Source: a virus
Lineage: Duplodnaviria > Heunggongvirae > Uroviricota > Caudoviricetes
IMG/VR virus record: IMGVR_UViG_2541047805_000003
Location: 1 to 16,051 of that record
Strand: one strand, 5' to 3'
Length of the DNA stretch: 16,051 nucleotides
The stretch's first letter is position 1; every line of letters starts with the position of its first letter. The notes beneath the pieces are model-generated. The model was not told the DNA's origin. It searched no databases and saw nothing but the letters and a program-made list of their open reading frames with translations. Below, piece by piece: positions 1 through 14,998 of this stretch. Made by a program: the position numbers and the translations under genes.

Positions 1-567
1 ATGCTTATTGGCTATGTACGCGTGTCAACAAATGACCAGAACACCGATTTGCAACGTAGTGCGCTGAACTGCGCGGGATGTGAGCGGATTTTTGAGGATA
101 AAATCAGTGGCACTAAGTCCGACAGACCGGGGCTGAAAAAACTGCTCAGGACACTATCGGCAGGAGACACGCTGGTTGTCTGGAAGCTGGACAGGTTGGG
201 GCGCAGTATGCGGCATCTTGTTACGCTGATAGAAGAGTTGCGCCAGCGTGGCGTGAATTTCCGAAGCCTGACTGACAGTATTGATACCAGCACCCCAATG
301 GGCCGTTTCTTTTTTCATGTCATGGGGGCCCTGGCTGAAATGGAACGCGAACTGATAGTTGAACGTACCAGGGCGGGGCTGGCTGCAGCTCGTGCTAAAG
401 GCAGAGTAGGTGGACGCCGTCCTAAGTTGACCACCGAACAGTGGGCACAGATTGGACGTTTACTCGAGGCCGGAGAATCAAGACAGCGTATTGCACTGAT
501 TTTTGATGTGGGTGTTTCCACAATTTATAGAAAATTTCCGGCAAATAAGAGCAATGAATCCCCCTGA
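1..567 (+). CDS. Serine recombinase, DNA invertase of the Gin/Pin/Cin/Hin family
   Basis: 188 aa. N-terminus MLIGYVRVSTNDQNTDLQ with the catalytic serine context, VVWKLDRLGRS, and a C-terminal HTH (GRRPKLT...STIYRK); near-collinear with Mu Gin / e14 Pin as remembered. Lies directly upstream of a tail gene, as expected for a tail-fibre inversion module. Confidence 0.93.
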   Translation: MLIGYVRVSTNDQNTDLQRSALNCAGCERIFEDKISGTKSDRPGLKKLLRTLSAGDTLVVWKLDRLGRSMRHLVTLIEELRQRGVNFRSLTDSIDTSTPMGRFFFHVMGALAEMERELIVERTRAGLAAARAKGRVGGRRPKLTTEQWAQIGRLLEAGESRQRIALIFDVGVSTIYRKFPANKSNESP

Positions 568-615
568 ATCAGCATTATGTTGATTATCCCTGCAAGCAGA
601 CAAATACCGTCATTT

Positions 616-633
616 TGTATGAATAACGGTACA
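616..633 (+). promoter_or_regulatory. TGT-N12-ACA dyad, candidate Ogr/Delta-type late promoter activator site upstream of the FI fragment
   Basis: tgt(616-618)-N12-aca(631-633), about 80 bp upstream of the FI ATG at 710. P2-family late promoters carry this dyad centred near -55. No convincing -10 element was identified. Confidence 0.3.
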
Positions 634-709
634 ACTGCGCTTAGCTGTTTGTCAGGCACAATCACTTCAACATAGGGCGAAGCCTAATCCAATCAGGAGG
701 TTCGCCACT

Positions 710-1320
710 ATGGCTCAGGATTACCACCACGGGGTGCGCGTTGTTGAAGTCAACGAAGGCACCCGATCCATTACCACGGTGAGCACCGCCATCGTGGGTA
801 TGGTCTGCACGGGCGATGATGCCGATGCAAAAATGTTTCCTCTTAATAAACCCGTGCTGATCACTGATGTGCTGACTGCCAGCGGTAAAGCGGGTGAGTC
901 CGGCACGCTGGCCCGTTCGCTGGATGCCATCGCTGACCAGGCAAAACCCGTGACCGTTGTTGTGCGTGTGCCGCAGGGTGAAACGGAAGAAGAAACCACG
1001 ACCAATATCATCGGCGCAGTGACTGCTGAAGGTAAAAAAACAGGCATGAAAGCCCTGTTATCTGCCCAGACACAGCTCGGCGTTAAACCGCGCATTCTCG
1101 GCGTGCCAGGTCACGATAACAAAGCCGTTGCTACTGAGTTGCTGAGTGTGGCGCAAAGCCTGCGTGGGTTTGCTTACCTGTCAGCGTATGGCTGCAAGAC
1201 GGTGCAGGAGGCGATCACTTACCGTGAAAACTTCAGCCAGCGCGAAGGAATGCTGATCTGGCCCGACTTTACTGGCTGGGACACGGTGCTGAATGCCGAA
1301 GCAACGGCATATACCGAAAT
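710..1320 (+). pseudogene. Tail sheath protein (P2 FI-like), N-terminal fragment only
   Basis: The first ~200 aa (MAQDYHHGVRVVEVNEGTRSITTVSTAIVGMVCT...NFSQREGMLIWPDF) look like a contractile tail sheath N-terminus. After about nt 1320 the frame continues to 1468 without sheath-like sequence. Strong RBS aggagg at 695-700. A full P2 FI is about 396 aa. Confidence 0.75.
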
Positions 1321-2312
1321 TCCAGGAGCTGCGCAAAGTGGCTTCCGGTATGGCTATTCACAAGAAATGGCGACAGACCTATTTTTCCACGCCATCCAGT
1401 CTGACACACAGTGCTTATCCGTTCTGGTCCGGTGCGCTGTTCAACCGTGGGCGCAACAGAGCCGATAAGGTGGACATCGACCTGTCCCACAGCAATCTGG
1501 CCCCCGGCCTGCTGTGCGCAGACGGGCAATACCGCCAGATAGTCACCGTGGAAGATGCGGTGCGCGGCGGCTGTAACCTGTTCGACCTTGACCAGTTGCG
1601 CATGGAGTACAGCCCTGACGAATACCAGAACTTGCTGATGTGCGAGTTCGTGGACGATCTCGCGTCCGTGTTCCCGCTCAGCGAATTGCAGGCGTGCATG
1701 GTGGACAGCTGGGAAGTCTGGACCGACTTTCATGCACTGGCCCTGCGCCCGTTTGGCTGGCGCGAAGTGTGGATCGGTTATGACCCGGCAAAAGGTACGC
1801 AGAACGGCGACAGCGCCGGATGCGTGGTGGTGGCACCGCCAGCCGTGCCAGGCGGTAAGTTCCGCATTCTTGAGCGTCACCAGTGGCGCGGAATGGACTT
1901 TCGCGCCCAGGCTGACGCCATCAAAAAACTGACCGAACAGTACAACGTGACCTATATCGGCATCGACTCAACCGGCGTTGGTCACGGGGTTTACGAGAAC
2001 GTGAAAGCGTTTTTTCCTGCCGTCCGGGAGTTTGTCTACAACCCCAACGTTAAAAACGCCCTGGTACTCAAGGCCTACGACATTATCAGCCACCGCCGTC
2101 TTGAGTTTGACGCCGGGCACACCGACATTGCGCAGTCATTCATGGCAATCCGTCGCGCCACCACCGCCAGCGGCAACCGCCCGACCTATGAAGCCAGCCG
2201 CAGCGAAGAAGCCAGCCATGCCGATCTGGCCTGGGCAACAATGCACGCACTGTTTAACGAACCACTGCAGGGCGAGTCCGCCAATACCAGCAATATTGTG
2301 GAGATTTTTTGA
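1293..2312 (+). pseudogene. Terminase large subunit (P2 gpP-like), C-terminal fragment only
   Basis: The translation from about nt 1326 onward (KKWRQTYFSTPSSLTHSAYPFWSG...SRSEEASHADLAWATMHALFNEPL) resembles the C-terminal nuclease half of a P2-type terminase ATPase subunit. The N-terminal ATPase half is absent and the 5' boundary abuts the FI fragment. The TGA stop overlaps the portal ATG (TGATG). Confidence 0.75.
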
Positions 2313-3337
2313 TGGGAAAGAGTAAGAAGAACCGCGCTGCGGCGACGAAACAGATCCAGCATAAAAACCAGACTTCAGCCGAAGCATTCAGCTTCGGTGA
2401 TCCCGTTCCTGTTCTGGACCGCCGCGAACTGCTGGACTATGTGGAATGCGTACAGATGGACCGTTGGTATGAGCCACCAGTGAGTTTCGACGGCCTGGCG
2501 CGAACCTTCCGTGCCGCCGTACACCACAGCTCACCGATTGCAGTAAAGTGCAACATTCTGACCAGCACCTATATCCCTCACCCGTTGCTCAGCCAGCAGG
2601 CTTTTTCACGTTTTGTGCAGGACTATCTGGTATTTGGTAATGCCTACCTGGAGAAACGCACGAACCGCTTCGGTGAAGTTATCGCCCTTGAACCTGCCCT
2701 GGCAAAATACACTCGACGCGGATTAGACCTGGATACCTACTGGTTTGTGCAATACGGTATGGCAACCCAGCCGTATCAGTTCACGAAAGGCAGCATCTTT
2801 CATCTGATGGAACCGGATATTAATCAGGAGATCTACGGCCTGCCTGGCTATCTTTCTGCTATTCCATCCGCTCTGCTCAACGAGTCCGCCACGCTGTTCC
2901 GCCGGAAGTATTACATTAACGGCAGTCATGCAGGCTTCATCATGTACATGACCGATGCCGCGCAAAACCAGGAGGATGTGAACAACCTCCGCAACGCAAT
3001 GAAAAGCGCCAAAGGACCGGGTAACTTCCGCAACCTGTTTATGTACTCGCCTAACGGCAAAAAGGATGGGCTTCAGATCATTCCTCTGTCAGAAGTCGCG
3101 GCGAAGGATGAGTTTCTGAATATCAAAAATGTCAGCCGCGATGACATGATGGCAGCACATCGCGTACCGCCGCAAATGATGGGGATTATGCCTAGCAATG
3201 TCGGGGGGTTTGGGGATGTAGAGAAAGCTAGTAAGGTATTTGTGCGGAATGAGCTTTTACCTTTGCAAAAATTGATGCAAGCGCTTAATTGTTGGCTAGA
3301 TGAAAATATAATTACATTTAATAAATATATTTTGTAG
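2312..3337 (+). CDS. Portal protein (P2 gpQ-like)
   Basis: 341 aa from the ATG at 2312 (the ORF track starts at the TTG at 2309). Length and sequence character fit a P2 Q portal (about 344 aa). Follows the terminase gene on the same strand with a stop/start overlap. Confidence 0.88.
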   Translation: MGKSKKNRAAATKQIQHKNQTSAEAFSFGDPVPVLDRRELLDYVECVQMDRWYEPPVSFDGLARTFRAAVHHSSPIAVKCNILTSTYIPHPLLSQQAFSRFVQDYLVFGNAYLEKRTNRFGEVIALEPALAKYTRRGLDLDTYWFVQYGMATQPYQFTKGSIFHLMEPDINQEIYGLPGYLSAIPSALLNESATLFRRKYYINGSHAGFIMYMTDAAQNQEDVNNLRNAMKSAKGPGNFRNLFMYSPNGKKDGLQIIPLSEVAAKDEFLNIKNVSRDDMMAAHRVPPQMMGIMPSNVGGFGDVEKASKVFVRNELLPLQKLMQALNCWLDENIITFNKYIL

Positions 3338-3351
3338 TTCCTGTTTATAAT

Positions 3352-3373
3352 TAACGCCTGCCTGAGCAGGCGT
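3352..3373. terminator. Hairpin between the convergent portal gene and the DUF262 gene, probable bidirectional terminator
   Basis: aacgcctgc (3352-3360), loop ctga, gcaggcgtt (3365-3373): 9-bp perfect stem. Followed by ctttcattt on the + strand and by an A/T-rich run on the - strand. Confidence 0.5.
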
Positions 3374-3377
3374 TCTT

Positions 3378-5159
3378 TCATTTAAAACGTGTTGCAATAT
3401 CTGCTGCTTCGATAACTGTTGCTTTTACGGTATTATCGCCAGCACGATAATAAATATCCCCATCATAACTAGAATAAGATGCTAGAAGTGGAATTGTAAT
3501 AACTATAACTCCATAACCATAAAAGTCATTATAGTCAATCAAACTCACCACTTGTGATTTAAGAGGCTCACTCAAAGCAGATTTTTTCAACTCATCGCAA
3601 AAACGTCTATAATATTCTTCCATTGATATGCCGAGTTTAATAGCTTCTCTTTTAACACCAACAACACTTCTCTCACCAACTACATGTGCATCTATATCAT
3701 CAAGCTCTTTTACTCTACTTGTATCACTTGGTTTATCTGTTACACCAAGCAATAACTTACCAACTACACCGTTCTTGTTACCTTTACCGATGTTAGCAAT
3801 AGCACAAATTGTGGAGAATATTTTCTCATGAATGCCATCATCAATAGTTCGCTCTCCGCCTAACATCAACAAACCCTGTTTCAGTTCATAATTTGCAAGC
3901 TCTATTTCAGATCTTCGTAAAATATCCTCAATATCCACCGTATTGTGAGAATTATAGATATGACTGCTATCGGCGCTATCAATAAAGTTATCTTTAATCA
4001 AGCCTATGATAGAATTAATATTCTTTCTTCTCTCTTCCCCACCAGTAGCAGATCTTTTAGTATCTAGTCGAGTGACTATATTATTAAGATTGTCTTTTAC
4101 ACCTTTATAATTATTAATCTTCTTATTTTCTTTAATGAGTAATTCATGAAAAGCAATAAATAACACAGCAAATATGGCTGGGAAAGCATTTGTAGTACGT
4201 TTAGTAAAGATTAAATCCCTGAGTTTAATTTCACCGTCACTATTACATACTTTTGTTATTTCCTGGATGCAGAATTTAAACTCTTCTGCAAATTTTCCTT
4301 CACCATAAACATTAATAGCAGAGCTAATACGACTATACTCTTCATCTTCATTATTATAAATCTGATCAAGCGCATCTTTGGAACGATCTATTAACTTACC
4401 TCCAACAATACAAGCTGCTATATCTGCAATGCATTGCTCATCCATACTGTCACGAAGGTCTGTTGAACGTAAGATCCCATGTTTTACCCAAAATACTTCT
4501 TCCGACTGAATTTGGTAACCATGTTTAGTTAGTGGCAAATCAATGCTAATAGACGGCATTTGCTCTAAAAGCAATATGTCGTCAGATACATCCCCCCTGA
4601 TAGAACAGGCAATATCCCTAACCATATTTGAAAATTTATTTTGTATACCAGCCTGGCGCCTTTCTTGATCACTAAGTCTATGCCCGTATGTATTAATTCT
4701 ATCAAAAACATCATTTATTTCGTTCTCAGTCGCATTACGCATAATGGACATTGCAAGAGAATAATCCAATAACTGAGTAACCTCACGCTGACTTAAAAGA
4801 TTATCAGCTTTCACTGCAACAAACTTACCTTCATCCGCTCGATTTTTCGCTGTGGGAAAAGCGTCCAGATTAAAACGTTTTCCATCAAGTGATTCATATC
4901 CTGTTTCGATGAAAGACATTATTGCATGTAATCTTTGTAGGCCATCAATTATTTCATATGTGCCAGGATCATTTTCCCTTTCCGCGAGAAGAACTGCAGG
5001 AATTGGATATTTTTTTTGAATGGATTCAATTAATTTTTGTTTCTCTATTGCAGTCCAAACTAATTTTCGTTGATAACGTCTATTAACAAATATCTTACCT
5101 TCAGTAAACCATGAATAAATAGTTTGTATAGAAGTTGTTTGCGGTAATAGTTCAGCCAT
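3378..5159 (-). CDS. DUF262 (ParB/GmrS-like NTP-binding) domain protein with an uncharacterised C-terminal half; candidate defence protein
   Basis: 593 aa, ATG with AAGGAA about 9 nt upstream. N-terminus has the DUF262 hallmarks YQRKLVW and IIDGLQRL (DGQQR-like). No DUF1524/His-Me finger motif seen in the C-terminal ~350 aa. Coding sequence is markedly AT-rich compared with the flanking phage genes. Confidence 0.75.
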   Translation of the reverse strand: MAELLPQTTSIQTIYSWFTEGKIFVNRRYQRKLVWTAIEKQKLIESIQKKYPIPAVLLAERENDPGTYEIIDGLQRLHAIMSFIETGYESLDGKRFNLDAFPTAKNRADEGKFVAVKADNLLSQREVTQLLDYSLAMSIMRNATENEINDVFDRINTYGHRLSDQERRQAGIQNKFSNMVRDIACSIRGDVSDDILLLEQMPSISIDLPLTKHGYQIQSEEVFWVKHGILRSTDLRDSMDEQCIADIAACIVGGKLIDRSKDALDQIYNNEDEEYSRISSAINVYGEGKFAEEFKFCIQEITKVCNSDGEIKLRDLIFTKRTTNAFPAIFAVLFIAFHELLIKENKKINNYKGVKDNLNNIVTRLDTKRSATGGEERRKNINSIIGLIKDNFIDSADSSHIYNSHNTVDIEDILRRSEIELANYELKQGLLMLGGERTIDDGIHEKIFSTICAIANIGKGNKNGVVGKLLLGVTDKPSDTSRVKELDDIDAHVVGERSVVGVKREAIKLGISMEEYYRRFCDELKKSALSEPLKSQVVSLIDYNDFYGYGVIVITIPLLASYSSYDGDIYYRAGDNTVKATVIEAADIATRFK

Positions 5160-5293
5160 GAAACAAATTCCTTCTTCTGGATAGAATTTTATAATATAGA
5201 AACTGAAAAGGTTAAGTTACCATCAAAAATGATGATAGCAACAAAAAGATACCATTTTGTAATTTTTTGTTCAGATTTTCATATCAGAGCGCG

Positions 5294-5312
5294 CTCGTAT
5301 CCCCGCCACGCC
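5294..5312. other. cos-like sequence (186/P2-type cohesive-end motif)
   Basis: The minus strand reads GGCGTGGCGGGGATACGAG; the first 13 nt match the 186 cohesive end (GGCGTGGCGGGGA...) as I remember it. It lies in a short GC-rich islet inside otherwise AT-rich cargo, between replication gene A and portal Q, where P2-family cos is expected. Confidence 0.4.
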
Positions 5313-5361
5313 TGCCCGCTTTATGTAGTGGTTTTCATGCAGGTGCATGACATAAGCAAAA

Positions 5362-5381
5362 GCCCGCCAGTTCTGGCGGGC
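5362..5381 (-). terminator. Candidate intrinsic terminator downstream of the two-gene operon
   Basis: gcccgcc (5362-5368), loop agttct, ggcgggc (5375-5381), followed on the minus strand by TTTTGCTTATG. Lies 146 nt downstream of the membrane-protein gene and upstream of the DUF262 gene promoter region. Confidence 0.45.
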
Positions 5382-5526
5382 CTCAGCAAAAACGATCCTA
5401 AAACGATCATGCGGATTCATGCAGCATAGACATGCAAAGCTTGTTAGAACGGTGATTCCCATGTTAAAGGAGGCTTACTCTTGTTGAGGTTAAACATCCA
5501 CAGTAACTCCTGCCAATACGAACACT

Positions 5527-6063
5527 TTATTCATCATAGTGTTCTAATTTCGCTTTTGCTAAACGTCCATGTAAGTGATTAACAAAATGTAAATTACTCA
5601 AAATCAGGCTCATAACGCATTTTAATTGCATCCAGCTAATAAAGTAAATGAAGAAAATACCAATGTATTTAAACAAGTCTTTATTAGCTTGATAAACAGG
5701 TAATGCATAAAACACTGCCTTAACCAAAAAGAAAATTAGAATCCCAGCCATAACACAAGCAGATGTGATTATTGTATAAACTAATTTCTCTATTCTTGGT
5801 GAGTCATGCTCATTTTTTATATAACTTACATCATCCTTAACAATACTATTCATTGCATTCGGATATAAAAAACCGACCCATAAACCGACAATAGTGAATA
5901 TAGATGCTGAAATATTTATAAGCGCACCTAAAATATCTTTTGCATCATTATAGGAAAAACTTTTGAACGAAAAATAGCTTATAACGCAGCACAAAACAAC
6001 AGCAACAAAATTAATCGCCTGCTGTTTTGCAACTGTTATTATCAAACCTTCCGTTTCTGTCAT
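5527..6063 (-). CDS. Small multi-pass membrane protein (about 4 predicted TM helices); candidate effector
   Basis: 178 aa. Hydrophobic stretches INFVAVVLCCVISYFSF, ILGALINISASIFTIVGLWVGFLY, LVYTIITSACVMAGILIFFLV and YIGIFFIYFISWMQLKCVMSLILS. ATG at 6063 sits 1 nt after the upstream stop (TGATATG on the minus strand) with a GGAAGG SD inside the upstream gene. AT-rich. Confidence 0.75.
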   Translation of the reverse strand: MTETEGLIITVAKQQAINFVAVVLCCVISYFSFKSFSYNDAKDILGALINISASIFTIVGLWVGFLYPNAMNSIVKDDVSYIKNEHDSPRIEKLVYTIITSACVMAGILIFFLVKAVFYALPVYQANKDLFKYIGIFFIYFISWMQLKCVMSLILSNLHFVNHLHGRLAKAKLEHYDE

Positions 6064-6064
6064 A

Positions 6065-7264
6065 TCAACCTTCCGCTATCTTTTTTGTGGATGCAGCTTC
6101 AGATTCTTTAATGGATGCTTCCTCAGCATATTTTACTTCACTAATCAAATCATCACGAATTTTGTTTATTTCATCCAGTAAAAAACGCGCTGAATAATGC
6201 TCAAACCCATCCGAATCTTGAAGAGGAAGTTTAGTCCTGGCTACATAGCTACTGAGCCAAACCGGATTAGCACGATCAGCCAGTAAAAAACCCACATCCC
6301 ATTCAGACTCTTCACCTCTCATTGAGAAGAGATTTCGAAGCTCATCCGATGATGGTGCACCGTCAATTTTAACTTCAATTTTACGAGGCTGCTCCAAAAC
6401 AGGAGGTGCCCCAATAAGCTTATTACGCTTTTCTTCACCCACCAGAGATGCTAAAGCTACACTTGTTAGCTTCAACAATGGTTGCCTTGTGTCATTTTGG
6501 TTTATTACCGTTGTATCCTTTATCAATGTGTGTGTAATTTTATGCCTTAACCTTTCAAAGTTTTCCTCAGCGGCTTTAAGTTTTGTTTCTTCCAATACAA
6601 ACTTGAAGATACAGTTTATCTCATTTTTGCCATCTTTATATTGAAACTTAGTATTGTAGACATCCACACAACGACCAGGGGTCTTAGCTGATTCAAATGT
6701 ACGCTTAGATTTCGTTCTTTTACCTAACTTACTATTATTATTTACATGCTGAATGAAGTATTGTGCGAAGAGATAAGTATCAGCGAAAGAATGGGGGAAT
6801 CTGATTGATGCTATTTTATTCAACTCAGGAATAATCCAGTAATAGCAGGGTTCACCCCAAATTATTTTATCCTCACCATGTTCTCTTCCCGCCCTAATGG
6901 TTCCTTTACTATCACCACTTACTTTAGAACCGACCTTAATACCATGTATTCCGTTACCGTTCCCCACTTCACGGTATAAAACAATTACTGCATCTTTAGT
7001 CTGGCTGTCCCTCACAAGGCCTCGACTGTAAACTCGTGTTCGCAGAGGTTGTTCTTCTTTATTCCATGGGAGAGTCTGCTCAAAATTTTTATCCTTGAGC
7101 CACCCTTCTAAATCGTCCAAAACCCCCATAAGATCGCCGAATTTATAATCAAGCTCTTCGGGTTTATTCTTTAAACGATAAAACCCACAAGCAGTAATAT
7201 CAAAGAAGGTGATTGAGCCGTTGTCCACTAAAACTCCTTTTTGCCAAAGCAACACACGATACAT
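6065..7264 (-). CDS. Hypothetical 399-aa soluble protein, no recognisable family; first gene of a two-gene operon with the membrane protein
   Basis: Long AT-rich ORF with an ATG start and a weak SD. Translationally coupled to the downstream membrane-protein gene. One R-x4-H match (RHKITH) is the only motif noticed, and that is weak. Confidence 0.7.
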   Translation of the reverse strand: MYRVLLWQKGVLVDNGSITFFDITACGFYRLKNKPEELDYKFGDLMGVLDDLEGWLKDKNFEQTLPWNKEEQPLRTRVYSRGLVRDSQTKDAVIVLYREVGNGNGIHGIKVGSKVSGDSKGTIRAGREHGEDKIIWGEPCYYWIIPELNKIASIRFPHSFADTYLFAQYFIQHVNNNSKLGKRTKSKRTFESAKTPGRCVDVYNTKFQYKDGKNEINCIFKFVLEETKLKAAEENFERLRHKITHTLIKDTTVINQNDTRQPLLKLTSVALASLVGEEKRNKLIGAPPVLEQPRKIEVKIDGAPSSDELRNLFSMRGEESEWDVGFLLADRANPVWLSSYVARTKLPLQDSDGFEHYSARFLLDEINKIRDDLISEVKYAEEASIKESEAASTKKIAEG

Positions 7265-7429
7265 TTTTCACGTATACCATCAGAATCGTCCCTAAACTTC
7301 AAGTTACTTATGATAATCAAGAAAGCTGTCGAATGTTGTTGCATAGGCCAAAGTTTCAGGGGAACAAGGCATTCTTAAATCACTTTTCACTACCCGTTTC
7401 TAACGCCTCACGCGGCTCGTTGTTCAACC

Positions 7430-7464
7430 TTGCGGACGATAAAAACCAGTTTTATCGTCCGCAA
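7430..7464. repeat. Perfect 15-bp inverted repeat with a 5-nt loop
   Basis: ttgcggacgataaaa (7430-7444), accag, ttttatcgtccgcaa (7450-7464). Lies immediately 3' of the DinI-like gene and in the upstream region of the 399-aa gene. No U-tract follows on either strand. Confidence 0.6.
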
Positions 7465-7470
7465 CGTTCG

Positions 7471-7704
7471 CTAGTGTAACCAGCTGTCGTCCTCCCAGAC
7501 CTTCTGCATAATTTTCATCACTTGTTTTCTTTCTTCGTCCAGTTGCAGTCCGGTCAGTTCCACACCGTTAGAGCTACCTTTGCGGATACGAATTACCGTT
7601 TTGGGATACAGGGGGCGCAGATTGCGGTAAAGCTCGGATTCAAGGGCGTCCAGTGTAGACTGGCTAATCTTCTGCTCTTTATCGATCATTATTTCAATGC
7701 GCAT
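7471..7704 (-). CDS. DinI-like protein (DNA-damage-inducible protein I family; 186 Tum C-terminal-like)
   Basis: 77 aa from the ATG at 7704 (GAGGTG SD). MRIEIMIDKE...LDALESEL...VWEDDSWL aligns along its length with E. coli DinI (MRIEVTIAK...IDALAGEL...TWESADDWF) as remembered. Confidence 0.75.
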   Translation of the reverse strand: MRIEIMIDKEQKISQSTLDALESELYRNLRPLYPKTVIRIRKGSSNGVELTGLQLDEERKQVMKIMQKVWEDDSWLH

Positions 7705-7714
7705 AAAAGTCACC

Positions 7715-7903
7715 TCAGCTGATGACATCCATTGAGCGGTTGTATTCATGGGTTCTGATTTTTGCCATGAGTTCATCTGTCAGTTCAGAAACCCACTGCA
7801 GGGCCAGCCCCTTCTCTTCATCACTACACTCACTAGCCGCTACAAGCTTAAGAAAAAAATCAATGCGCTGGAGCTTCAAAGACTCCAAAAAATAGTCCTG
7901 CAT
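7715..7903 (-). CDS. Hypothetical 62-aa protein, first gene of the LexA-boxed operon
   Basis: ATG at 7903 with AGGAGG 4 nt upstream; ends 11 nt before the DinI-like start. No recognisable motif. Confidence 0.5.
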   Translation of the reverse strand: MQDYFLESLKLQRIDFFLKLVAASECSDEEKGLALQWVSELTDELMAKIRTHEYNRSMDVIS

Positions 7904-7945
7904 CTTTCCTCCTATGACACCAAAGCAATACTGTATACATAACCA

Positions 7946-7961
7946 CTGTTTATATTTACAG
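7946..7961 (-). promoter_or_regulatory. LexA (SOS) box CTGT-N8-ACAG, with an adjacent imperfect box at 7931-7946
   Basis: ctgtttatatttacag fits CTGT-N8-ACAG with an AT-rich centre. The neighbouring tactgtatacataaccac has a perfect left half only. Located 43-58 bp upstream of the 62-aa ORF start, in the A to DinI intergenic region. Confidence 0.65.
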
Positions 7962-8055
7962 TATATAATAATCTTACTGATGTAAAACGTTTTTTTACGT
8001 TCATCAGCCTGGTATGCCTGGTATTATTAAGAGCACGAATTGTTAACCCGCGTAA

Positions 8056-10428
8056 TTAATACAGATCCCGCCACTTATCATCTTCCTGCAAACGCTGGTT
8101 CCGATAGAAGATACGCAGGCCTGCTCCTGACGGAATACTGCCACCGCGAAGGAGTAAATCGACCTCTTTCTCGCTGCCATCAAATCCTCTGGACTTCAGT
8201 TCATAGACGAGCTGCTGTCGCTGATGATCTGTAATTCGCTGTTTGTAGTCTCTACGCCGTTTCGGTTTCACCAGGCGTAACCTTGCAGCCAGTTCCCGGC
8301 GCTCTTTTTTGTTCATACTGTGCAGGTAATCGTGCAATTCCTTGTCATCCATGCGGGTGATATCCGTTCTGGTATCCCCATCAGCTGATTTGTCTTTCCC
8401 TTGTTGGTACAAATTTTCAGCAAGGGGACAGTTATTGCCACGAGTCCAAGGGGCGCAAGCGCCCTGGTCGGCTGCCGCCTCCTGAACATCAACGGCCTTA
8501 CGAACCATTTTCCACTTCACGGCATGAGTGCAGATCTTGCCCTCTGCAATAGGTGACCAGATGCCATAAATACGAATGCCGTGATCGCCATAGGCGGTCG
8601 GCTCTTCGTTGATTTCATAAGCGGTTCTGATGAGGTGATATTTGCGGGGAACCAGTACGCCGCCCTGCTTCATGATGTAGGTGGCAAAACAACCAGCATC
8701 AGCAGCAGCCAGGATGGCATCAAGGCGCGGGTTATCCAGTACCGGCGCACCTGCTTTTTTGTCCCCCTGTTGCCTTGCCGCCTGACCAGCCAGCAATCGC
8801 AGTTCACGGTAAGCCTGACGCCCCGGAATGCCAAAGAAGCGGAATTGCTGAACACGATGCAGAGACGCCCAGGCATTAACGTATTCAGCATTATCACGCA
8901 GGGATTTCCCCGTTTCCTTGCTGATCTCGCCAGCCAGACCACGCCCGTCAATGTTCTTACTGATGTATTTCGCGATGTAGCTTGTTGGCGTACCTTTGCG
9001 CGGGTTAATCAACTCAGACTTAAAGCGCGGCCCAGTGTTATTGCCCAGTTCCTCGCGGTCTTCACGGATGGCAAACTTACGCAGTAATGCAGTGATGGCG
9101 CGGCGGTCTTTTTTGCGCATAAAACACAACAGGTGCCAGTGAACTGTACCGTCATGATGCGGCTCAGCCACCCGCACGCCATACCACCGCAATCCGGCTT
9201 TGTGCATCGCCTTACGAAATGCAGCAAACATGCCGACCAGATAATCACTGCTTTGTCTTACCGTCGCATTTGTCCAAGTTGGGTTGGGCCTGCCATTATT
9301 TAGCGTGGAATGGAAACGTGACGGACAGGTGATGGTGTAGAAAACGGCGCAGTCACCGCGCATTTCCGCGATAAGCTCCAGGCCTTTAACACAGGCCATC
9401 ATCTCATTGCGGCGATGCGCAGGGTTGCTGCTGCTGGCGTTTACCACATCCTCCATGTCCAGCGTGTCGCCGTCTTCGTTCACCAGTTCATGAGAACGAA
9501 AAAACTCCAGCGACTTACGGCGCTGCTCACGTTTATGCATCACGGCTTCATAGCTGACATAGGGAGATGCTTTTTTGCTGACCAGGCAGACAGCACGCAA
9601 CTGCTCTTCCCGCCATTCGCAACGCATCTTCCATAATTTCCGGTACCACCAGTCAGCGCACAACATACGCGCCAGCGAACCCGGAATGAGTTCATAGGGC
9701 ACGGGTTTACGGCGGTTTCTTTTCCGGCGGAGTTGCTCAAACGCAGGCGGGATGACATCCAGACGCAGGGTTTCCGCTGCCACCTTTTCCCATGTCTTGC
9801 GGATTTCTTCTGGCTTAACGTCATCGGTGACATACAAATCGCCACAAGCTGCATCAAGGCACATGCTCATATGCGCAGCTACCAGGGTGGACAGGCGTTT
9901 CACCTGATCCTGACTCATTTCAGGCAGGATCAGCAGGCCGTCCAGCCCTTCATGGCTTGCCATAAAGCGAAAAGAAGTGGATAGCTGACAGTCGCGTACA
10001 TGCTCCAGCCGTTCCAGACATGGCTTAATCGTCTCACGCAAATAGCGGGAATAAGCCTTTGGCCTGCCCAGGCTGCTGAAGTATTCAATACGTTGCATCA
10101 GCGGCTTGCTGATATGGGAAGGCTGGGCATTGACGTCCGCCAGAATGACCATATCTGGATTAAAACGCTGCTGCTCATGCGCCAGCTTTGCCCGACTAAT
10201 GAGCTTATCCTGCTCCATTTCGCGCTGGACAGGATCACGGGATTCATTAAAGAAATAACGCTCCCAGACCTGATCACTCAGTGCCTCGCGGCGCAGCTGT
10301 TCCTGCTCGTTATCGGCAGCGTACAGAGCGATCAGATTTGAAAGCGCAGAAACTGAAGATTGCTCTTCTGTCTCTACGTAAGGATTGATTGCTTTTTTCT
10401 CAGCATTCCAGGAATAGCTGTAGTTCAT
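8056..10428 (-). CDS. Replication initiation protein (P2/186 gpA family rolling-circle endonuclease)
   Basis: About 790 aa with the HUH-type motif [15 protein letters not shown] and the active-site tyrosine motif [14 protein letters not shown]. Start taken as the ATG at 10428 (GGAG SD; TAATG overlap with the upstream stop) rather than the TTG at 10479 listed in the ORF track. Confidence 0.88.
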
Positions 10429-11258
10429 TACGCAATCTCCAGTTCGAGCTGTGAAGGCTGCAAACCATTCGACAGCCAATCAGAAACTGAAGGTGGGCGA
10501 ACAGCTTCAATTGCACCTTTTAAAATTGCGCAACGGTTTTTCAGAATGACAGCTTTCAGCTCCTTTTCCGTCAGATTGCGCGAATACTCAGCCTCCTGAA
10601 TAGCCCGCGTCAGCTCAGGATATTTGCTATTAAATTTGGGGACATTGCAGGCAAGATTTGTACTGTCGGCAGTCGCCAGTGGGTAATTTCCCAACACACG
10701 ACCGTCAAGCATGCGCAAACCATGAACAGCTGTTTTGAAATTGTGTCGGCAATAAATTGCTTCAAAAGCGTCCTGCATACGACGATGCCAGTGCGCAGTT
10801 CTGATAGCCGCATATTCACCAGACGATCCAAAGCAGACACGAGGCCATTCACGACATAGCTCGATAAGCCGATCGATTGACTCGTGCAGATGCCAGACGG
10901 GAGTTGCCTTCCCGTAGAACATTTTCGGAACTTCGTTTATCAGGGCATCATTGTCACGTTCACCTCCGTCCACAACATCAGGAATGACAAAAAAAGCGAC
11001 CTTAGGATGGTGGTAATAGTTCAGGAGCCATTTATAAAAATCACTCCAGTTAATTTTTAGCCCACGCACCCATGCAGAAAATGCGCCGTTATCAATGCCG
11101 ACGACCTGAGCGTGCTGAATGGACGCCGCAATCTGATCTGGTCGTACATAGGAGACGAAAGCGCCAGCTCCGCTCACCGCAATACGATGAACGTCGCCAG
11201 CACTTCCCCAGACAGGCGTCCCATGGAAATGATGAATTCCGTGGTGCATTTCTTTCAC
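10428..11258 (-). CDS. Hypothetical 276-aa protein, translationally coupled between Dam and gene A; function unknown
   Basis: GTG start at 11258 overlapping the Dam stop (GTGA), or ATG at 11249. His/Trp-rich N-terminus ([10 protein letters not shown]). No confident motif match. Confidence 0.65.
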
Positions 11259-12109
11259 ACTTGCACCCCGAAAATAACAGTAGAGTCACGTCCCCTACTA
11301 AAATCGGCACTAAACCAATTAGCAGATTTAGTGGCAATCATCTCTGTTGCAAATTTTCCCTCCCCCGCTGCAACGCCGATGCTGCGTTTCGCCCTGATGT
11401 AGTGGTGAGTGAAATTACGATAAAGGGACCGGGTCAAAGACGTGTTACTGTTAGAAACAATGACCGGATGTCCTTCTGATGACCGATGTTCAAGAATGGA
11501 TGCCAGGTGATACTGATCATCTTCAGTGAAACCATCAGTGTGATAGCCGGAAAACGTACCGTCATAAGGCGGATCGCAATACACCACATCCCCCACCTTC
11601 AACATCGCCAGCGTTTCATCAAAGCTGGCGCAGATAAACGTTGCCCGCTGGGCTTTCTCTGCAAATGCGCGAATTTCTTTTTCAGGGAAATACGGATTTT
11701 TATAATTACCGTAGGGAATGTTGAAATGCCCGCTCTTGTTATAGCGACATAAACCACGGTAACCGTGACGATTGAGATACAGGAAATATACCGCTTTCAT
11801 GAAATCAGTAATTTCAGTGGAGTAATTAAACTCCTGCCTTATGTTGTAATAAGCCACCTCTCTGTTTGCTTCCTCAAATAAAGCTCTGGCACGAGATATA
11901 AACGCCTCACAATCAGCAGCAACCTTTTTATAGAGGTTGATTAAATCAGGATTAATATCCGCAACAAGATAGCTGGGGTAATCCGTCTCCATCATCACTG
12001 CACAGGAACCCGCGAAAGGTTCAACCAGTCGCGGGCCAGCAGGAAGATGCTTTTTCAGTTCGGACATTATGGCGGTTTTATTTCCTGCCCATTTCAGGAT
12101 GGTGCTCAT
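11255..12109 (-). CDS. dam: DNA adenine methyltransferase (Dam family, GATC-type N6-adenine MTase)
   Basis: 284 aa from the ATG at 12109 (ATGA overlap with the upstream stop). LKWAGNK, the DPPY catalytic motif and [16 protein letters not shown] are near-collinear with E. coli Dam. Confidence 0.9.
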
Positions 12110-12333
12110 ACAGCACCTCCGTTGTAATGTTTGCCTTTCAGCTCTGCGATTTCCTGACAGGTAATGCAAAGCTGCACACCCGGAATGGCACGGCGGCGTG
12201 CTGGCGGAATTGGCGCTTCACACTCAACGCAAAGCACGCGGGACACGCCCGGCGTTTTGGCACGGGCAGCACGGATATGGCGTTGGCGTTCTTCTTCAAC
12301 GCGCTGCTGTACGAGATCCATTGCATCAGCCAT
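12106..12333 (-). CDS. TraR/DksA-family C4 zinc-finger protein (P2 Orf82-like)
   Basis: 75 aa with CVECEAPIPPARRRAIPGVQLCITCQ, i.e. CxxC-x17-CxxC, closely resembling F-plasmid TraR. Confidence 0.8.
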   Translation of the reverse strand: MADAMDLVQQRVEEERQRHIRAARAKTPGVSRVLCVECEAPIPPARRRAIPGVQLCITCQEIAELKGKHYNGGAV

Positions 12334-12566
12334 CAGTGGATCTCCTGCGCTTCGTTCTGGATTGCTTCAGCAGTCACACGCAACAGTTCTGCCGCTTCGA
12401 CGTGGTTTAGCTGGCGGGAGGTGATATGACACGCCAGGCTATCGAGGCGAGCAGCCATTGCTTCAGCCCTTGCCCGGCGTTCTTCCAGACGAGCCTCTGT
12501 CAGTAAAAGATTAAGACCTGCATCATCCGGTCCGGTTTTGGTCGTGAGGGTTTCAATATTACGCAT
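12333..12566 (-). CDS. Hypothetical small protein (77 aa) in the early operon
   Basis: ATG at 12566 with AGGAG about 8 nt upstream; stop overlaps the TraR-like start. The ORF track lists a TTG start at 12572. Confidence 0.55.
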   Translation of the reverse strand: MRNIETLTTKTGPDDAGLNLLLTEARLEERRARAEAMAARLDSLACHITSRQLNHVEAAELLRVTAEAIQNEAQEIH

Positions 12567-12633
12567 AAGCAATTCTCCTGAATTTAGATAAAGGGATGCC
12601 CGGCGGGTTTACGCCATTAATTTCATTAGTTGG

Positions 12634-12975
12634 TTAATTCGGCATGGTTAGCCGTCTGGGAAATAAGCTCACCACTGCACGAAAATGATTCATTGCTTTA
12701 ATCAACTCCCGCTTTTCGTCAGTGGTCAGCTCATTAATGCTGATGCTATGACGTTCAGCTGGAATTTTTGCCATAAAGAATATGGCAGCCAGTGCCCGTT
12801 TATTTTGTTCATTATTGATATCCCGAGGATCACGCATATCTTTAATAAACCGCTCAAGCTCTGACTCAATATTCAAACCAAAAACTTTCGCCCTTAACTC
12901 CGCAATATGATTAAGTCCATTCAGGCGTTCACCGGGTCTTAATGGAACAGTCGCCGCAGCGCCTTCAATAGCCAT
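12634..12975 (-). CDS. Hypothetical early protein (113 aa)
   Basis: ATG with GGGGGA SD; sits between the cII-like gene and the TraR-like gene as in P2/186 early operons. Confidence 0.6.
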   Translation of the reverse strand: MAIEGAAATVPLRPGERLNGLNHIAELRAKVFGLNIESELERFIKDMRDPRDINNEQNKRALAAIFFMAKIPAERHSISINELTTDEKRELIKAMNHFRAVVSLFPRRLTMPN

Positions 12976-13139
12976 TTGTTCCCCCGTTTTTTCGTAGATA
13001 GTTCTGCCAGCAATTCATCTTGTGAACGGCACGGATGCCAGCGTTTACCATCCTCACCCATGATCCAGCCGTGACCGTAGTGCATTGCCGGACTTTGTTT
13101 TACCAGCAGCGATGCAAATGATGGTTCTTTCGTCAGCAT
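12939..13139 (-). CDS. Hypothetical small early protein (66 aa)
   Basis: ATG at 13139 with GAGGTG SD, immediately after the CII-like stop. Overlaps the next gene's start by 37 nt in another frame. Confidence 0.45.
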   Translation of the reverse strand: MLTKEPSFASLLVKQSPAMHYGHGWIMGEDGKRWHPCRSQDELLAELSTKKRGNKWLLKALRRLFH

Positions 13140-13146
13140 AAGCACC

Positions 13147-13656
13147 TCACAGCAAACCGAATGAAGCACCGAGGCCAGTCACGGTATCAACTGCACTCGC
13201 CATCGCAGGATTAGCCTGTAAACGGGCCTGCAATGAAACAGCAGCCAGCGCCATCAGTCGTGTAACAGAGTTAATGCTGCTGATCGCATCACGACGGCCT
13301 GCACTGGTTTTTACATCGCCAGAAACCGCACCTGCCGCGACACGCCCTATCTCTGCAGTTGCACTCATGACGTAATGCGGCAGTTTCTCTTTTGCCACCT
13401 CATTAATCGGTACACATGGCAGGCAGTGAATCTGTGCCAGAAAGCCATCTACCAGCGTTGAATCTTCAGTCAGATCGGTAAGCAACCAGATTTCTGGTGC
13501 GGTTAATAAATGAGGTTGAGCTGGGTTCAGCTTGTTCCGCAGAATCTGCACATTCATGCCTGCACGTTCTGCCAGTTGCACTAGGTTGTGGCGCAATGCG
13601 AATGCACGACAGGCTTCATCAAAATGTGGATGTTTGGAAACTTGGTAATCAAACAT
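13147..13656 (-). CDS. CII-like transcriptional activator (phage 186 CII / CP76 family)
   Basis: 169 aa from the ATG at 13656 (the track lists TTG at 13662), the same length as 186 CII. N-terminal [24 protein letters not shown] and [31 protein letters not shown] resemble 186 CII as remembered. Second gene of the lytic operon after the apl-like gene. Confidence 0.75.
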
Positions 13657-13688
13657 GGTCAATGCCTCTGATGTATTTCAGAATCGAA

Positions 13689-13910
13689 CTAATTAAGGTT
13701 TAGATTGCATTCTGAAAGCGCATCAACGGTCATGGCTGCTATGTTGATCATCACTTTTTCACGTTTTTTATCTTTGCGCAGACGGTGACGGATAAGGCGT
13801 CCGTCAGCCAACATGTCATTGATGGTATCGATGGACAGCCCTGTCAGCTCGCTATAGCGTTCAATAGTCACATGAGGCGTGGTAAGAGTGATTGAAATGT
13901 TAGGTCTCAT
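13689..13910 (-). CDS. Apl/Cox-like excisionase and switch regulator
   Basis: 73-aa basic protein with an HTH-like segment ([24 protein letters not shown]). First gene of the operon divergent from the repressor, the position of 186 apl / P2 cox. Confidence 0.6.
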
Positions 13911-14035
13911 GATGCAACATTCCTCGTTTAATGATGATTAATCAGGACGAATACGGATCGTTTGTATTTTGTGAACACCATAAACATACGATCGCACAGT
14001 GAAATCGTCAAGATAAAAGTTCACTTGGAGTGACC
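13911..14035. promoter_or_regulatory. Lysis-lysogeny switch region between divergent apl-like and cI-like genes
   Basis: 125-bp AT-rich intergenic region containing the inverted repeat gtgaac (13971-13976) / gttcac (14019-14024) and several gtgaa half-sites. By analogy with 186/P2, convergent promoters and operators are expected here. Confidence 0.45.
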
Positions 14036-14605
14036 ATGAATTTGGAGAAAGGCGGACGAGGCGCTATAGAGCGCATGGTAGAAGCTTATGGATTCAAAAC
14101 TCGACAGGCGTTGTGCGATCATTTAGGAATCTCTAAAAGTACACTCGCCACACGCTACATGCGTGACTCATTCCCAGCAGAATGGGTAATCCAGTGCGCC
14201 CTTGAAACGGGCACCTCGCTTAATTGGCTCACAACCGGACATGGTTCAAAGCAAACTTCAGGTAATACAAATACTATGGAAGTTGCTAAATATGTATTAT
14301 CTGATGGTGCCTTGCGTGAAGACGGTTTTTATATTTTTGATAAGGGATTTCTACCCTCTACGTTTAAAAAACCTTTTGTCATCACAGATAACAATTCTGA
14401 ATTTATTTGTGATAAAGAATTTGATGATATACGTGACGGTAAATGGGTAATAAGTATTGATGGCGAAATAACAATCCGCGACATTACTCGTTTACCCGGT
14501 GGAAGAATCTTCGTTGAAGGTGGAAACAGAGCCTTCGAGTGCAAGATAGAAGATGTTGAAATAATTGGGAAAATTATAAGTTTAACAATTAAGTACGTTA
14601 GGTAA
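14036..14605 (+). CDS. CI-type immunity repressor (186 CI-like)
   Basis: 189 aa from the ATG at 14036 (GGAG SD). N-terminal HTH (TRQALCDHLGISKSTLATRYMR); divergent from apl/cII; upstream of and co-oriented with int. Confidence 0.78.
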   Translation: MNLEKGGRGAIERMVEAYGFKTRQALCDHLGISKSTLATRYMRDSFPAEWVIQCALETGTSLNWLTTGHGSKQTSGNTNTMEVAKYVLSDGALREDGFYIFDKGFLPSTFKKPFVITDNNSEFICDKEFDDIRDGKWVISIDGEITIRDITRLPGGRIFVEGGNRAFECKIEDVEIIGKIISLTIKYVR

Positions 14606-14620
14606 TACCGGGAGGAAACT

Positions 14621-14812
14621 ATGCTTGGTAAGGTATTTTTTGTGGTTTTATCATGCTCTTTGTTATTAAACCCACTAACTACCTATGCTAAAAATTATCC
14701 TTGTTCTGGGAAAAAGGGAGGTGTCTCTCACTGTACCTCCGATGGAAAGTTCGTTTGCAATGATGGAACTATTAGTAAATCAAAAAAAATCTGTACTAAA
14801 AACTCGCGATAA
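14621..14812 (+). CDS. Small secreted cysteine-rich peptide (63 aa), candidate moron in the lysogenic operon
   Basis: Strong RBS GGAGG 5 nt upstream. N-terminal signal peptide ([23 protein letters not shown]) and a roughly 40-aa mature region with four Cys. Lies between cI and int on the same strand. Confidence 0.5.
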
Positions 14813-14998
14813 ATTTTGCTTTTATATCTGCGCCTAATATAACAATGAGCCGCAGGCTAACCGCAAAAGTCACATACTCACATAGCAAAAAATAGCCAAC
14901 TTCATTATGGCTTCAGTGAGATGTATGGTCGCAGGATTTCATACATTGACACTGGTTATATATACAGTAAAGATGCTCTCTATTGGAGGGCATTTTTT

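What the first reader, a model, noticed from the sequence alone, without database searches (positions are those of the whole stretch)
5280..5470. cos-like motif and terminator hairpin in a GC-rich islet inside the cargo
The 19-mer at 5294-5312 (minus strand GGCGTGGCGGGGATACGAG) matches the 186-type cohesive end over the first 13 nt as remembered. If this is the real cos, the DUF262 gene sits between cos and Q, and the two-gene operon between the SOS module and cos. Cargo would then occupy both genome termini, with about 1.8 kb inserted between Q and cos compared with P2. An adjacent hairpin at 5362-5381 with a downstream T-run on the minus strand probably terminates the two-gene operon.
Basis: partly seen in the sequence, partly recalled or inferred. 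Interest (0 to 1): 0.5.

Follow-up and report, generated by a model that had tools for sequence, protein, structure and literature searches.

The report
Packaging (cos) site of a P2-like prophage
The flagged motif is the genuine DNA-packaging (cos) site of a P2/186/Fels-2-type prophage of E. coli, a conserved 150-bp island with swappable defence genes on both sides, and this arrangement is already described, so the finding is correct but ordinary.

Summary
Window 5294-5312 (minus strand) reads GGCGTGGCGGGGATACGAG. It matches the phage 186 cohesive end at 15 of 19 positions, including the first 13, and is identical to the published cos of Salmonella phage SEN8.

The similarity goes well beyond the G-rich core. 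A 150-bp island (window 5287-5437) aligns without gaps to the joined right and left ends of 186, P2 and P4. Across about 116 distinct related loci, conservation falls to background exactly at the two island edges.

The core 13-mer is unique in the window and in the intact sister prophage of E. coli UMNK88.

The hairpin at 5362-5381 with a T-run is real. It belongs to the conserved island, not to the two-gene operon, because relatives lacking that operon also have it.

Cargo sits on both sides of cos. A DUF262/GmrSD-like gene lies between cos and the portal gene Q. A PDC-M18 candidate defence pair lies between dinI and cos. This is the known gpA-gpQ, cos-adjacent defence hotspot of P2-like phages, and Fels-2 and SEN8 show the same layout.

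In this window the terminase gene is truncated by a rearrangement, so this copy may not package itself.

Verdict: interpretation supported, already known, low interest.

The parts
5287..5437 (-). Conserved cos island. In P2-map orientation it spans positions -125 to +25, counted from the first base of the 19-mer.
   Evidence: Column conservation across 116 unique related loci is 0.8-1.0 inside the island and 0.3-0.5 outside, with sharp edges. The island aligns without gaps to the joined ends of 186, P2 and P4.
5294..5312 (-). Predicted 19-nt cohesive-end sequence GGCGTGGCGGGGATACGAG. The cuts are inferred to fall at its two borders.
   Evidence: Homologous position to the annotated cos of 186 and P2. 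Identical to the 'putative cos site' at bases 1-19 of SEN8. 95 of 120 IMG/VR loci carry the identical 19-mer.
5287..5293 (-). Left flank box CGCGCTC (family consensus yGCGCGC). This is the last conserved bases before the left cargo.
   Evidence: The window has T at +24 (window 5288) where 97% of relatives have G. E. coli W, which carries the same DUF262 cargo, shares this T.
5313..5322 (-). AAAGCGGGCA box immediately to the right of the cut site.
   Evidence: Conserved in P2, P4, 186 and all relatives.
5330..5349 (-). Proximal repeat block CATGCAccTGCATGAAAACC.
   Evidence: 95-100% conserved and in register with 186, P2 and P4. It lies inside the P2/P4 55-bp core.
5358..5381 (-). GC-rich hairpin (stem 5362-5370 with 5373-5381) plus a T-run at 5358-5361. 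Probably an intrinsic terminator for transcription running toward cos.
   Evidence: Fold energy and z-score. 91.7% of cells are paired across 64 variants, but covariation is weak. 186 and P4 have hairpins at the same register and P2 has none.
5394..5408 (.). Two GATC (Dam) sites 11 nt apart, at 5394-5397 and 5405-5408, within the tandem repeat GATCGTTTT.
   Evidence: 94-98% conserved while neighbouring positions vary. Absent from P2, 186 and P4. Role unknown.
5408..5437 (-). Three distal GCATG repeats at -123, -110 and -100. Candidate terminase small-subunit binding sites (a cosB-like arm).
   Evidence: 4 GCATG in 125 nt, against 0.12 expected from the window-wide frequency. Same positions in P2, P4 and 186. 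Conserved across relatives.
3378..5159 (-). Left-end cargo between cos and Q: a 593-aa DUF262/GmrSD_N protein.
   Evidence: Pfam GmrSD_N, E = 1.6e-22. PADLOC NsnA, E = 8e-31. Relatives hold different genes in the same slot.
5527..7264 (-). Right-end cargo between dinI and cos: a two-gene operon, 399 aa (6065-7264) followed by a 178-aa membrane-like protein (5527-6063).
   Evidence: PADLOC PDC-M18A, E = 5.9e-31, and PDC-M18B, E = 2.8e-18. No Pfam hit. The same pair occurs with a different left cargo in E. coli D9.
2312..3337 (+). Portal gene Q. This is the backbone gene that bounds the left cargo slot.
   Evidence: Pfam Phage_portal. UMNK88 annotation.
3353..3374 (.). Hairpin between the converging Q and DUF262 genes, at the position of P2 tQ.
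   Evidence: Terminator scan. tQ is annotated at the equivalent place in P2 and tW in 186.
7471..7704 (-). dinI-like gene (SOS module). This is the backbone gene that bounds the right cargo slot.
   Evidence: Pfam DinI, E = 1.3e-22. UMNK88 annotation.

Best explanation
Window 5287-5437 is the cos (cohesive-end) packaging site of a Fels-2/186-type P2-like prophage of E. coli.

By homology, the phage terminase (gpM and gpP) recognises the long right arm. That arm holds three distal and two proximal GCATG-type repeats plus the AAAACC and AAAGCGGGCA boxes. The terminase then makes staggered nicks at the borders of GGCGTGGCGGGGATACGAG, giving 19-nt 5' overhangs.

The mature genome would therefore start at window 5312, reading leftward into the DUF262 gene and then Q. 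It would end at window 5313, just after the PDC-M18 operon.

The GC-rich hairpin with a T-run inside the right arm most likely stops transcription from the dinI and cargo genes before it crosses cos.

The island is the only conserved DNA between two independently exchangeable cargo slots, which together form the known gpA-gpQ hotspot.

Shown here: homology, island boundaries, uniqueness, cargo variability and hairpin stability. Inferred: the exact cut positions, terminase binding to the repeats, and terminator activity.
For: The joined ends of 186, P2 and P4 align without gaps to the window from -125 to +25. The 19-mer matches 15 of 19 (186) and 14 of 19 (P2, P4). The 55-bp P2/P4 core (-29 to +25) matches 43 of 55 (186) and 41 of 55 (P2).

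The SEN8 record begins with the identical 19-mer and ends at the base homologous to window 5313. It is annotated and published as the cos site.

All 120 IMG/VR loci retrieved with a right-arm-only pattern carry the 19-mer immediately after it, and 95 are identical.

Conservation across 116 unique loci forms a sharp 150-bp island.

The core is unique in the window and in the whole UMNK88 prophage.

The site lies between gpA/dinI and gpQ, as in every P2-like phage examined.

GCATG is enriched: 4 in 125 nt against 0.12 expected.

The hairpin folds at -25.3 kcal/mol, z = -3.16. It is retained in 64 variants with 91.7% of cells paired. P4 and 186, whose neighbouring genes read toward cos, have a hairpin at the same register. 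P2, whose old and tin genes read away from cos, has none.
Against: No packaged-DNA ends have been mapped for this 19-mer variant. The SEN8 cos was assigned by annotation, and I found no experimental mapping in the library.

The window carries T instead of the 97%-conserved G at +24.

In this window the terminase large-subunit gene is truncated to its C-terminal 339 aa, so this copy may never be cut by its own enzyme.

Hairpin covariation is not significant. The equivalent hairpins in 186 and P4 lack a T-run, so a role at the DNA level cannot be excluded.
Confidence: 0.93

Rival explanations
1. The sequence is homologous to cos but is a dead relic in this element. The prophage is rearranged, so the site is never cleaved by its own terminase, and at best it could be used in trans by a co-resident P2-like phage.
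For: Window 1-1312 (Hin-like invertase plus the N-terminal part of the tail sheath) is joined at 1311/1312 to the C-terminal 339 aa of terminase P. Both genes are intact in UMNK88. The junction is absent from all 5426 complete E. coli genomes searched. There is a G-to-T change at +24.
Against: The island itself is intact. It is 100% identical to that of the structurally complete UMNK88 prophage. The T at +24 is shared with E. coli W, whose prophage has intact P and Q. The junction could also be an assembly or window artefact.
Confidence: 0.3
2. The inverted repeat at 5362-5381 is mainly a DNA-level cos element, such as a protein-binding palindrome or a cruciform used in packaging, rather than a transcription terminator.
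For: The stem is conserved as sequence, and covariation is not significant. 186 keeps CGCCAGnnCTGGCG at the same register without a T-run, and P4 also has a hairpin there without a T-run. The repeat sits between the distal and proximal repeat blocks of the terminase-side arm.
Against: P2, which packages normally, has no hairpin there. Most one-sided changes are C-to-T, giving G-U pairs that are tolerated in RNA. The T-run is 92-98% conserved in this cos type. Presence of the hairpin tracks with neighbouring genes being transcribed toward cos.
Confidence: 0.2
3. A chance G-rich motif next to an ordinary terminator, with no packaging role.
For: Degenerate matches to the 13-mer with 3 mismatches occur at the chance rate.
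Against: There is 150 bp of in-register homology to three experimentally studied cos regions. The 19-mer is identical to the SEN8 cos. The island is sharply conserved across more than 100 loci.
Confidence: 0.01

Closest known systems
cos of Salmonella phage SEN8 and the Fels-2 / RE-2010 group (Felsduovirus). The same island type also occurs in Klebsiella phage 4LV2017, Escherichia phages 500465-1 and vB_EcoM-813R9, and Yersinia phage MLG42.
   Same: The 19-mer is identical and the island is 87-94% identical. It sits in the same position between dinI and Q. The same hairpin, GATC pair and GCATG repeats are present. Fels-2 and SEN8 also have genes on both sides of cos.
   Different: The cargo genes differ. 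There is a single G-to-T change at +24. In this window the terminase gene is truncated.
cos of coliphage 186 (NC_001317)
   Same: The first 13 nt of the cohesive end are identical and 15 of 19 match overall. 43 of 55 core positions match. The repeat layout is the same, and there is a GC-rich inverted repeat at the same register. A non-essential gene (orf97) lies between the SOS gene tum and cos.
   Different: The last 6 nt of the overhang differ at four positions (TACGAG against AAGCAT). 186 has no T-run after the inverted repeat, no GATC pair, and no cargo between cos and the portal gene. Its annotated terminator t95b lies further upstream.
cos of P2 and P4, and the 55-bp core of Ziermann and Calendar 1990 (as cited in PMC5694545 and PMC3931495)
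   Same: The core architecture and cut-site context match at 41 of 55 positions. The distal TGCAT repeats are in register. Defence cargo lies next to cos (old and tin in P2, gop/beta/cII in P4).
   Different: The 19-mer matches at 14 of 19. P2 has no hairpin at -70 to -50. P2 cargo lies only on the right side, and Q follows cos after 167 nt.
The gpA-gpQ, cos-adjacent defence hotspot of P2-like phages (Rousset et al. 2022, PMC9122126; NAR 2026, PMC13586616). The cosL-Q slot was noted earlier by Dodd and Egan 1996 and Nakayama 1999, as cited in PMC5694545.
   Same: Variable anti-phage or candidate anti-phage genes lie directly next to cos, between gpA and gpQ.
   Different: Nothing differs in kind. 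This report only adds base-level island boundaries and one worked example of independent exchange of the two slots.

Membership tests
P2-family cos site | A G-rich 19-nt cohesive-end sequence at the position homologous to the mapped P2 and 186 ends | tested here: met
   15 of 19 match 186 and 14 of 19 match P2 and P4 in an ungapped alignment. The 19-mer is identical to the SEN8 cos.
P2-family cos site | Similarity over the 55-bp core shared by P2 and P4 (-29 to +25) | tested here: met
   P2 and P4 match each other at 52 of 55. The window matches P2 at 41 of 55 and 186 at 43 of 55.
P2-family cos site | Located between the right-end genes (gpA and the SOS module) and the portal gene Q | tested here: met
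   Gene order in the window and in UMNK88, Fels-2, SEN8, RE-2010 and 4LV2017.
P2-family cos site | Single copy per element | tested here: met
   One exact core in the window and one in the whole UMNK88 prophage locus.
P2-family cos site | Cognate terminase genes (gpP and gpM) present in the same element | tested here: inconclusive
   gpP is truncated in the window, with only the C-terminal 339 aa present. gpM lies outside the window. Both are intact in the 98.8%-identical UMNK88 prophage.
P2-family cos site | Virion DNA carries 19-nt 5' protruding ends of this sequence | not testable with these tools
   No end-mapping data were found for this variant. None of the 120 IMG/VR contigs ends at the cut site.
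Intrinsic (rho-independent) terminator | A GC-rich stem-loop directly followed by a T-run on the transcribed strand, downstream of a gene in the same orientation | tested here: met
   8-9 GC-rich pairs, a 4-nt loop, then TTTTGCTT. -25.3 kcal/mol, z = -3.16. It lies 146 nt downstream of the stop codon at 5527. The simple scanner did not list it, apparently because the stem can extend into the T-run (my reading of the fold).
Intrinsic (rho-independent) terminator | Structure kept by compensatory changes, or termination shown in vivo | tested here: inconclusive
   91.7% of cells are paired, but only 2 double changes occur, and 20 of 500 shuffles reach the observed covariation score. In vivo termination cannot be tested here.
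P2 gpA-gpQ defence hotspot | Variable gene content among otherwise collinear relatives, next to cos | tested here: met
   Relatives carry different genes in both slots: AIPR, retron, TIR, Hypoth_Ymh, HNH, PIN and orf97-like. Homology ends at the island edges.
P2 gpA-gpQ defence hotspot | The cargo has anti-phage activity | not testable with these tools
   Family matches only: GmrSD_N and NsnA, and PDC-M18A and PDC-M18B, which is a candidate system.

The most novel reading that the evidence does not exclude
The cos sequence itself is the preferred crossover point that reshuffles the two defence-cargo slots. This could happen through annealing of cleaved cohesive ends from different co-resident P2-like or P4-like genomes, as Rousset et al. 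speculated.

The window is E. coli W-type from 3300 up to about 5325 and D9-type from 5288 onward, so the switch lies in a 38-bp interval that contains the 19-mer. Across IMG/VR loci the island is tightly linked to the right flank (1.75 mismatches) and much less so to the left cargo (13.9 mismatches, against 22 for unrelated pairs).

Ordinary homologous recombination at the longest perfectly conserved block (-10 to +23) predicts the same pattern and is not excluded.
Probability: 0.25. Interest if true: 0.5.

Novelty: already known. Interest (0 to 1): 0.15.

Why it matters
The result fixes the genome ends of this prophage type. It shows that both cargo modules are terminal, cos-adjacent passengers of the described P2 hotspot. 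That helps with annotation, since several database records call hypothetical ORFs across the island. It also helps in delimiting defence cassettes.

The 116 unique loci act as a natural deletion series. They delimit the conserved region, presumably what is needed in cis, to -125 through +25, which is about 100 bp longer on the right than the classical 55-bp core. This gives a testable map of candidate terminase-binding repeats. None of this changes the current understanding of P2-like phages.

Tried and rejected
- **Contigs ending at the cut site.** I searched IMG/VR with a right-arm-only pattern, hoping for independent end-mapping evidence. None of the 120 loci ended at the cut.
- **Experimental end mapping in the literature.** I found none for this 19-mer variant. 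SEN8 was assigned by annotation.
- **Rfam.** A scan of 5100-5600 gave only a sub-threshold chance hit (rnk leader, 21.7 bits against a gathering score of 55), so I rejected it.
- **Hairpin covariation.** The formal test was not significant because the stem is too conserved.
- **GATC pair and a phage-encoded dam gene.** The test was uninformative. Only 2 informative loci lack the pair, and 7 loci have the pair with no dam gene found nearby.
- **Small ORFs across the island.** ORFs 5229-5429 (+) and 5271-5462 (-) overlap the island. I rejected them as genes because variable positions cluster in blocks rather than with a period of 3, and conservation stops at the island edges rather than at ORF edges.
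- **Source genome and the 1311/1312 junction.** No complete E. coli genome contains the junction.
- **Simple terminator scan.** It did not list the 5362-5381 hairpin, so the hairpin rests on the fold and the comparisons.

Full report
**1. Observation**

The + strand at 5294-5312 is CTCGTATCCCCGCCACGCC. Phage 186 (NC_001317) begins GGCGTGGCGGGGAAAGCAT, and P2 and P4 begin GGCGAGGCGGGGAAAGCAC. The first 13 nt therefore match 186 exactly. Overall identity is 15 of 19 to 186 and 14 of 19 to P2 and P4.

- The exact core GGCGWGGCGGGGA occurs once in the window. The other five hits carry three mismatches each, which is the chance rate.
- The hairpin at 5362-5381 is real. It has a TTTT run on the minus strand and folds at -25.3 kcal/mol with z = -3.16.
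- The islet is GC-rich: 0.54 in 5287-5437 against 0.28 and 0.33 in the flanks.

**2. What it is**

I read the window's minus strand in P2-map orientation and joined the right and left ends of 186, P2 and P4. All four sequences align without any gap from about -125 to +25, counted from the first base of the 19-mer. They share the following elements, from right arm to left flank:

| Position | Element |
|---|---|
| about -124, -111, -101 | three distal TGCAT/GCATG repeats |
| -37 to -18 | proximal block CATGCAnnTGCATkAAAACC |
| -10 to -1 | AAAGyGGGCr |
| 0 to +18 | the 19-mer |
| +19 to +25 | yGCGCGC |

The block from -29 to +25 is the P2/P4 55-bp core. P2 and P4 match each other there at 52 of 55 positions. 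The window matches P2 at 41 of 55 and 186 at 43 of 55. The core is cited from Ziermann and Calendar 1990 in PMC5694545 and PMC3931495.

GCATG occurs 4 times in the 125-nt right arm, against 0.12 expected from the window-wide frequency.

Salmonella phage SEN8 is a plaque-forming phage. Its record starts with the identical 19-mer, annotated and published as the cos site. The record ends at the base homologous to window 5313.

A pattern taken only from the right arm retrieved 120 IMG/VR loci. Every one carries the 19-mer immediately after the pattern, and 95 are identical. The rest differ mainly at positions 13 and 19 of the 19-mer.

Across 116 unique loci, column conservation is 0.8-1.0 from -125 to +25 and drops to 0.3-0.5 within one or two bases on either side. 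In window coordinates the island is 5287-5437.

The intact sister prophage in E. coli UMNK88 is 98.8% identical over window 1311-16005 and 100% identical over 3300-7500. It contains only this one cos core.

**3. How it probably works**

What the comparisons show is a long conserved arm on the right-end side, only 7 conserved bases on the left, and repeats kept in register across four cos types.

From this and from the established P2 and lambda model of cos recognition, I infer that the terminase small subunit (gpM) binds the GCATG repeats. The large subunit (gpP) would then nick at the borders of the 19-mer and leave 5' overhangs.

The mature genome would start at window 5312, reading toward the DUF262 gene and then Q. 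It would end at 5313, after the two-gene operon.

The cut positions for this variant are assigned by alignment to P2 and 186, whose ends were determined chemically (cited in PMC3931495). I found no direct mapping for this 19-mer.

**4. The hairpin**

The hairpin belongs to the conserved island, not to the two-gene operon. It is present in vB_EcoM-813R9, MLG42 and 500465-1, where dinI directly abuts the island. It is also present in 64 distinct variants, with 91.7% of cells paired.

Most stem changes are one-sided C-to-T changes that keep G-U pairs. Only two double changes occur, and the covariation test is not significant: 20 of 500 shuffles reach the observed score.

186 and P4 form strong hairpins at the same register, at -21.7 and -18.6 kcal/mol, but neither has a T-run. 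P2 forms none (-5.2 kcal/mol).

This fits a terminator role. In 186, P4 and this phage type the neighbouring genes are transcribed toward cos. In P2, old and tin are transcribed away from it. With only four cos types the correlation is weak.

I rate 'terminator that insulates cos and the left cargo from rightward read-through' as most likely. I keep a DNA-level role in packaging as a 0.2 rival.

No other terminator-like site was found on the minus strand between the operon's stop codon at 5527 and the hairpin.

**5. Cargo on both sides**

- **Left slot (cos to Q).** A 593-aa protein with a GmrSD_N/DUF262 domain (Pfam E = 1.6e-22; PADLOC NsnA E = 8e-31).
- **Right slot (dinI to cos).** A pair matching the PADLOC candidate system PDC-M18A and PDC-M18B.

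Relatives fill the left slot with an AIPR protein, a retron, a TIR protein, a Hypoth_Ymh protein, an HNH protein or a PIN protein. Fels-2 and SEN8 also have a gene in the right slot.

[quoted passage not shown] The cosL-Q slot was noted even earlier.

The two slots exchange independently:
- E. coli W has the same DUF262 gene at 99.4% identity but a different right slot.
- E. coli D9, D4 and ECCWS199 have the same PDC-M18 pair at 99.6-99.9% identity but different left slots (a PIN-domain gene in D9 and D4, an AIPR gene in ECCWS199).

The window is identical to W up to about 5325 and identical to D9 from 5288 onward. The switch therefore lies in a 38-bp interval that contains the 19-mer.

Among the IMG/VR loci, I counted mismatches within the island for pairs of loci:

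| Pair type | Mean island mismatches |
|---|---|
| share only the right flank | 1.75 |
| share only the left cargo | 13.9 |
| share neither | 22.0 |

In 21 of the 33 pairs that share only the left cargo, identity ends by -11.

This pattern fits crossovers concentrated at the cos core. Homologous recombination at the longest perfectly conserved block would give the same pattern, and the pairs are not phylogenetically independent.

**6. State of this copy**

Window 1-1312 encodes a Hin-type invertase and the N-terminal part of the tail sheath on the + strand. At 1311/1312, with a 2-nt overlap (AT), it joins the C-terminal 339 aa of the terminase large subunit.

In UMNK88 both genes are intact and lie on opposite strands about 13 kb apart. 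The window's arrangement therefore corresponds to an internal inversion, or to an assembly or window artefact. No complete E. coli genome holds this junction.

If the junction is real, this prophage cannot cut its own cos. The island itself is undamaged.

**7. Verdict**

The site is a member of the P2-family cos sites, and its 19-mer is identical to one already published. The cargo layout on both sides is the known hotspot. The novelty class is 'already known' and the interest is low.

Modest additions from this work:
- base-level island boundaries;
- the in-register repeat architecture beyond the 55-bp core;
- a conserved GATC pair in the island;
- one worked example of a crossover at cos.

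Noticed in passing
window 1-2312 (junction at 1311/1312): A Hin/Gin-type serine invertase (1-567) and the first ~200 codons of the tail sheath gene (from 710) are fused, in the same orientation, to the C-terminal 339 aa of terminase P. The overlap at the junction is only 2 nt (AT). In UMNK88 both genes are intact and on opposite strands, so the window implies a ~13-kb internal inversion or an artefact. The junction is absent from 5426 complete E. coli genomes.
   Followed up: partly
window 1 and 16005-16051: The window starts exactly at the invertase ATG and ends exactly at the stop of the integrase ORF. Relative to UMNK88, 481 bp are missing just after window 16005. That segment holds a small hypothetical gene next to rcdA. 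Its absence changes the last residues of the integrase ORF.
   Followed up: partly
window 5394-5397 and 5405-5408: Two GATC (Dam) sites lie 11 nt apart inside a tandem GATCGTTTT repeat in the cos right arm. They are 94-98% conserved while neighbouring bases vary, and they are absent from P2, 186 and P4. This phage type usually carries its own dam gene (window 11255-12169). 45 of 52 informative loci with the pair also have dam, but 7 do not. From my own knowledge, this resembles the Dam-controlled P1 pac hexamers (TGATCR). The role here is unknown.
   Followed up: partly
window 5408-5437, and L002/L004/L134 right ends: Three distal TGCAT/GCATG repeats lie outside the classical 55-bp core. They sit at the same positions (about -124, -111, -101) in P2, P4, 186 and this phage, and the natural conservation boundary is at -125. 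The cis-acting cos arm is probably about 100 bp longer than the 55-bp core.
   Followed up: yes
window 5288-5325; L135 (E. coli W), L136 (E. coli D9): The window is a mosaic. It is W-type to the left and D9-type to the right, and the switch lies within a 38-bp interval containing the 19-mer. Across IMG/VR loci the island is linked to the right flank and much less so to the left cargo.
   Followed up: partly
window 6065-7264 (minus strand): RefSeq annotates the first cargo gene in UMNK88 as 316 aa, plus a separate 43-aa ORF. The PDC-M18A profile aligns from residue 17 of the 399-aa reading frame, and D9 is annotated at 387 aa. The longer start is probably the right one.
   Followed up: no
window 3378-5159 (minus strand): The DUF262/GmrSD_N protein has a sub-threshold C-terminal match to Schlafen/AlbA_2 (E = 0.0012, residues 445-580) rather than the usual DUF1524 nuclease domain.
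   Followed up: no
window 14621-14812 (+): A 63-aa ORF lies between the CI repressor and integrase genes. By eye it starts with a hydrophobic, signal-peptide-like stretch and has several cysteines; I ran no prediction on it. In vB_EcoM-813R9 the same slot holds a 1.7-kb 'chromosome segregation ATPase' gene, so this is another variable slot.
   Followed up: no
window 10428-11258 (minus strand): A 276-aa ORF lies between dam and gpA, with no PADLOC hit (Pfam was not run). RefSeq annotates it as hypothetical. Fels-2, SEN8, RE-2010, 4LV2017 and 813R9 have no gene between dam and gpA.
   Followed up: no
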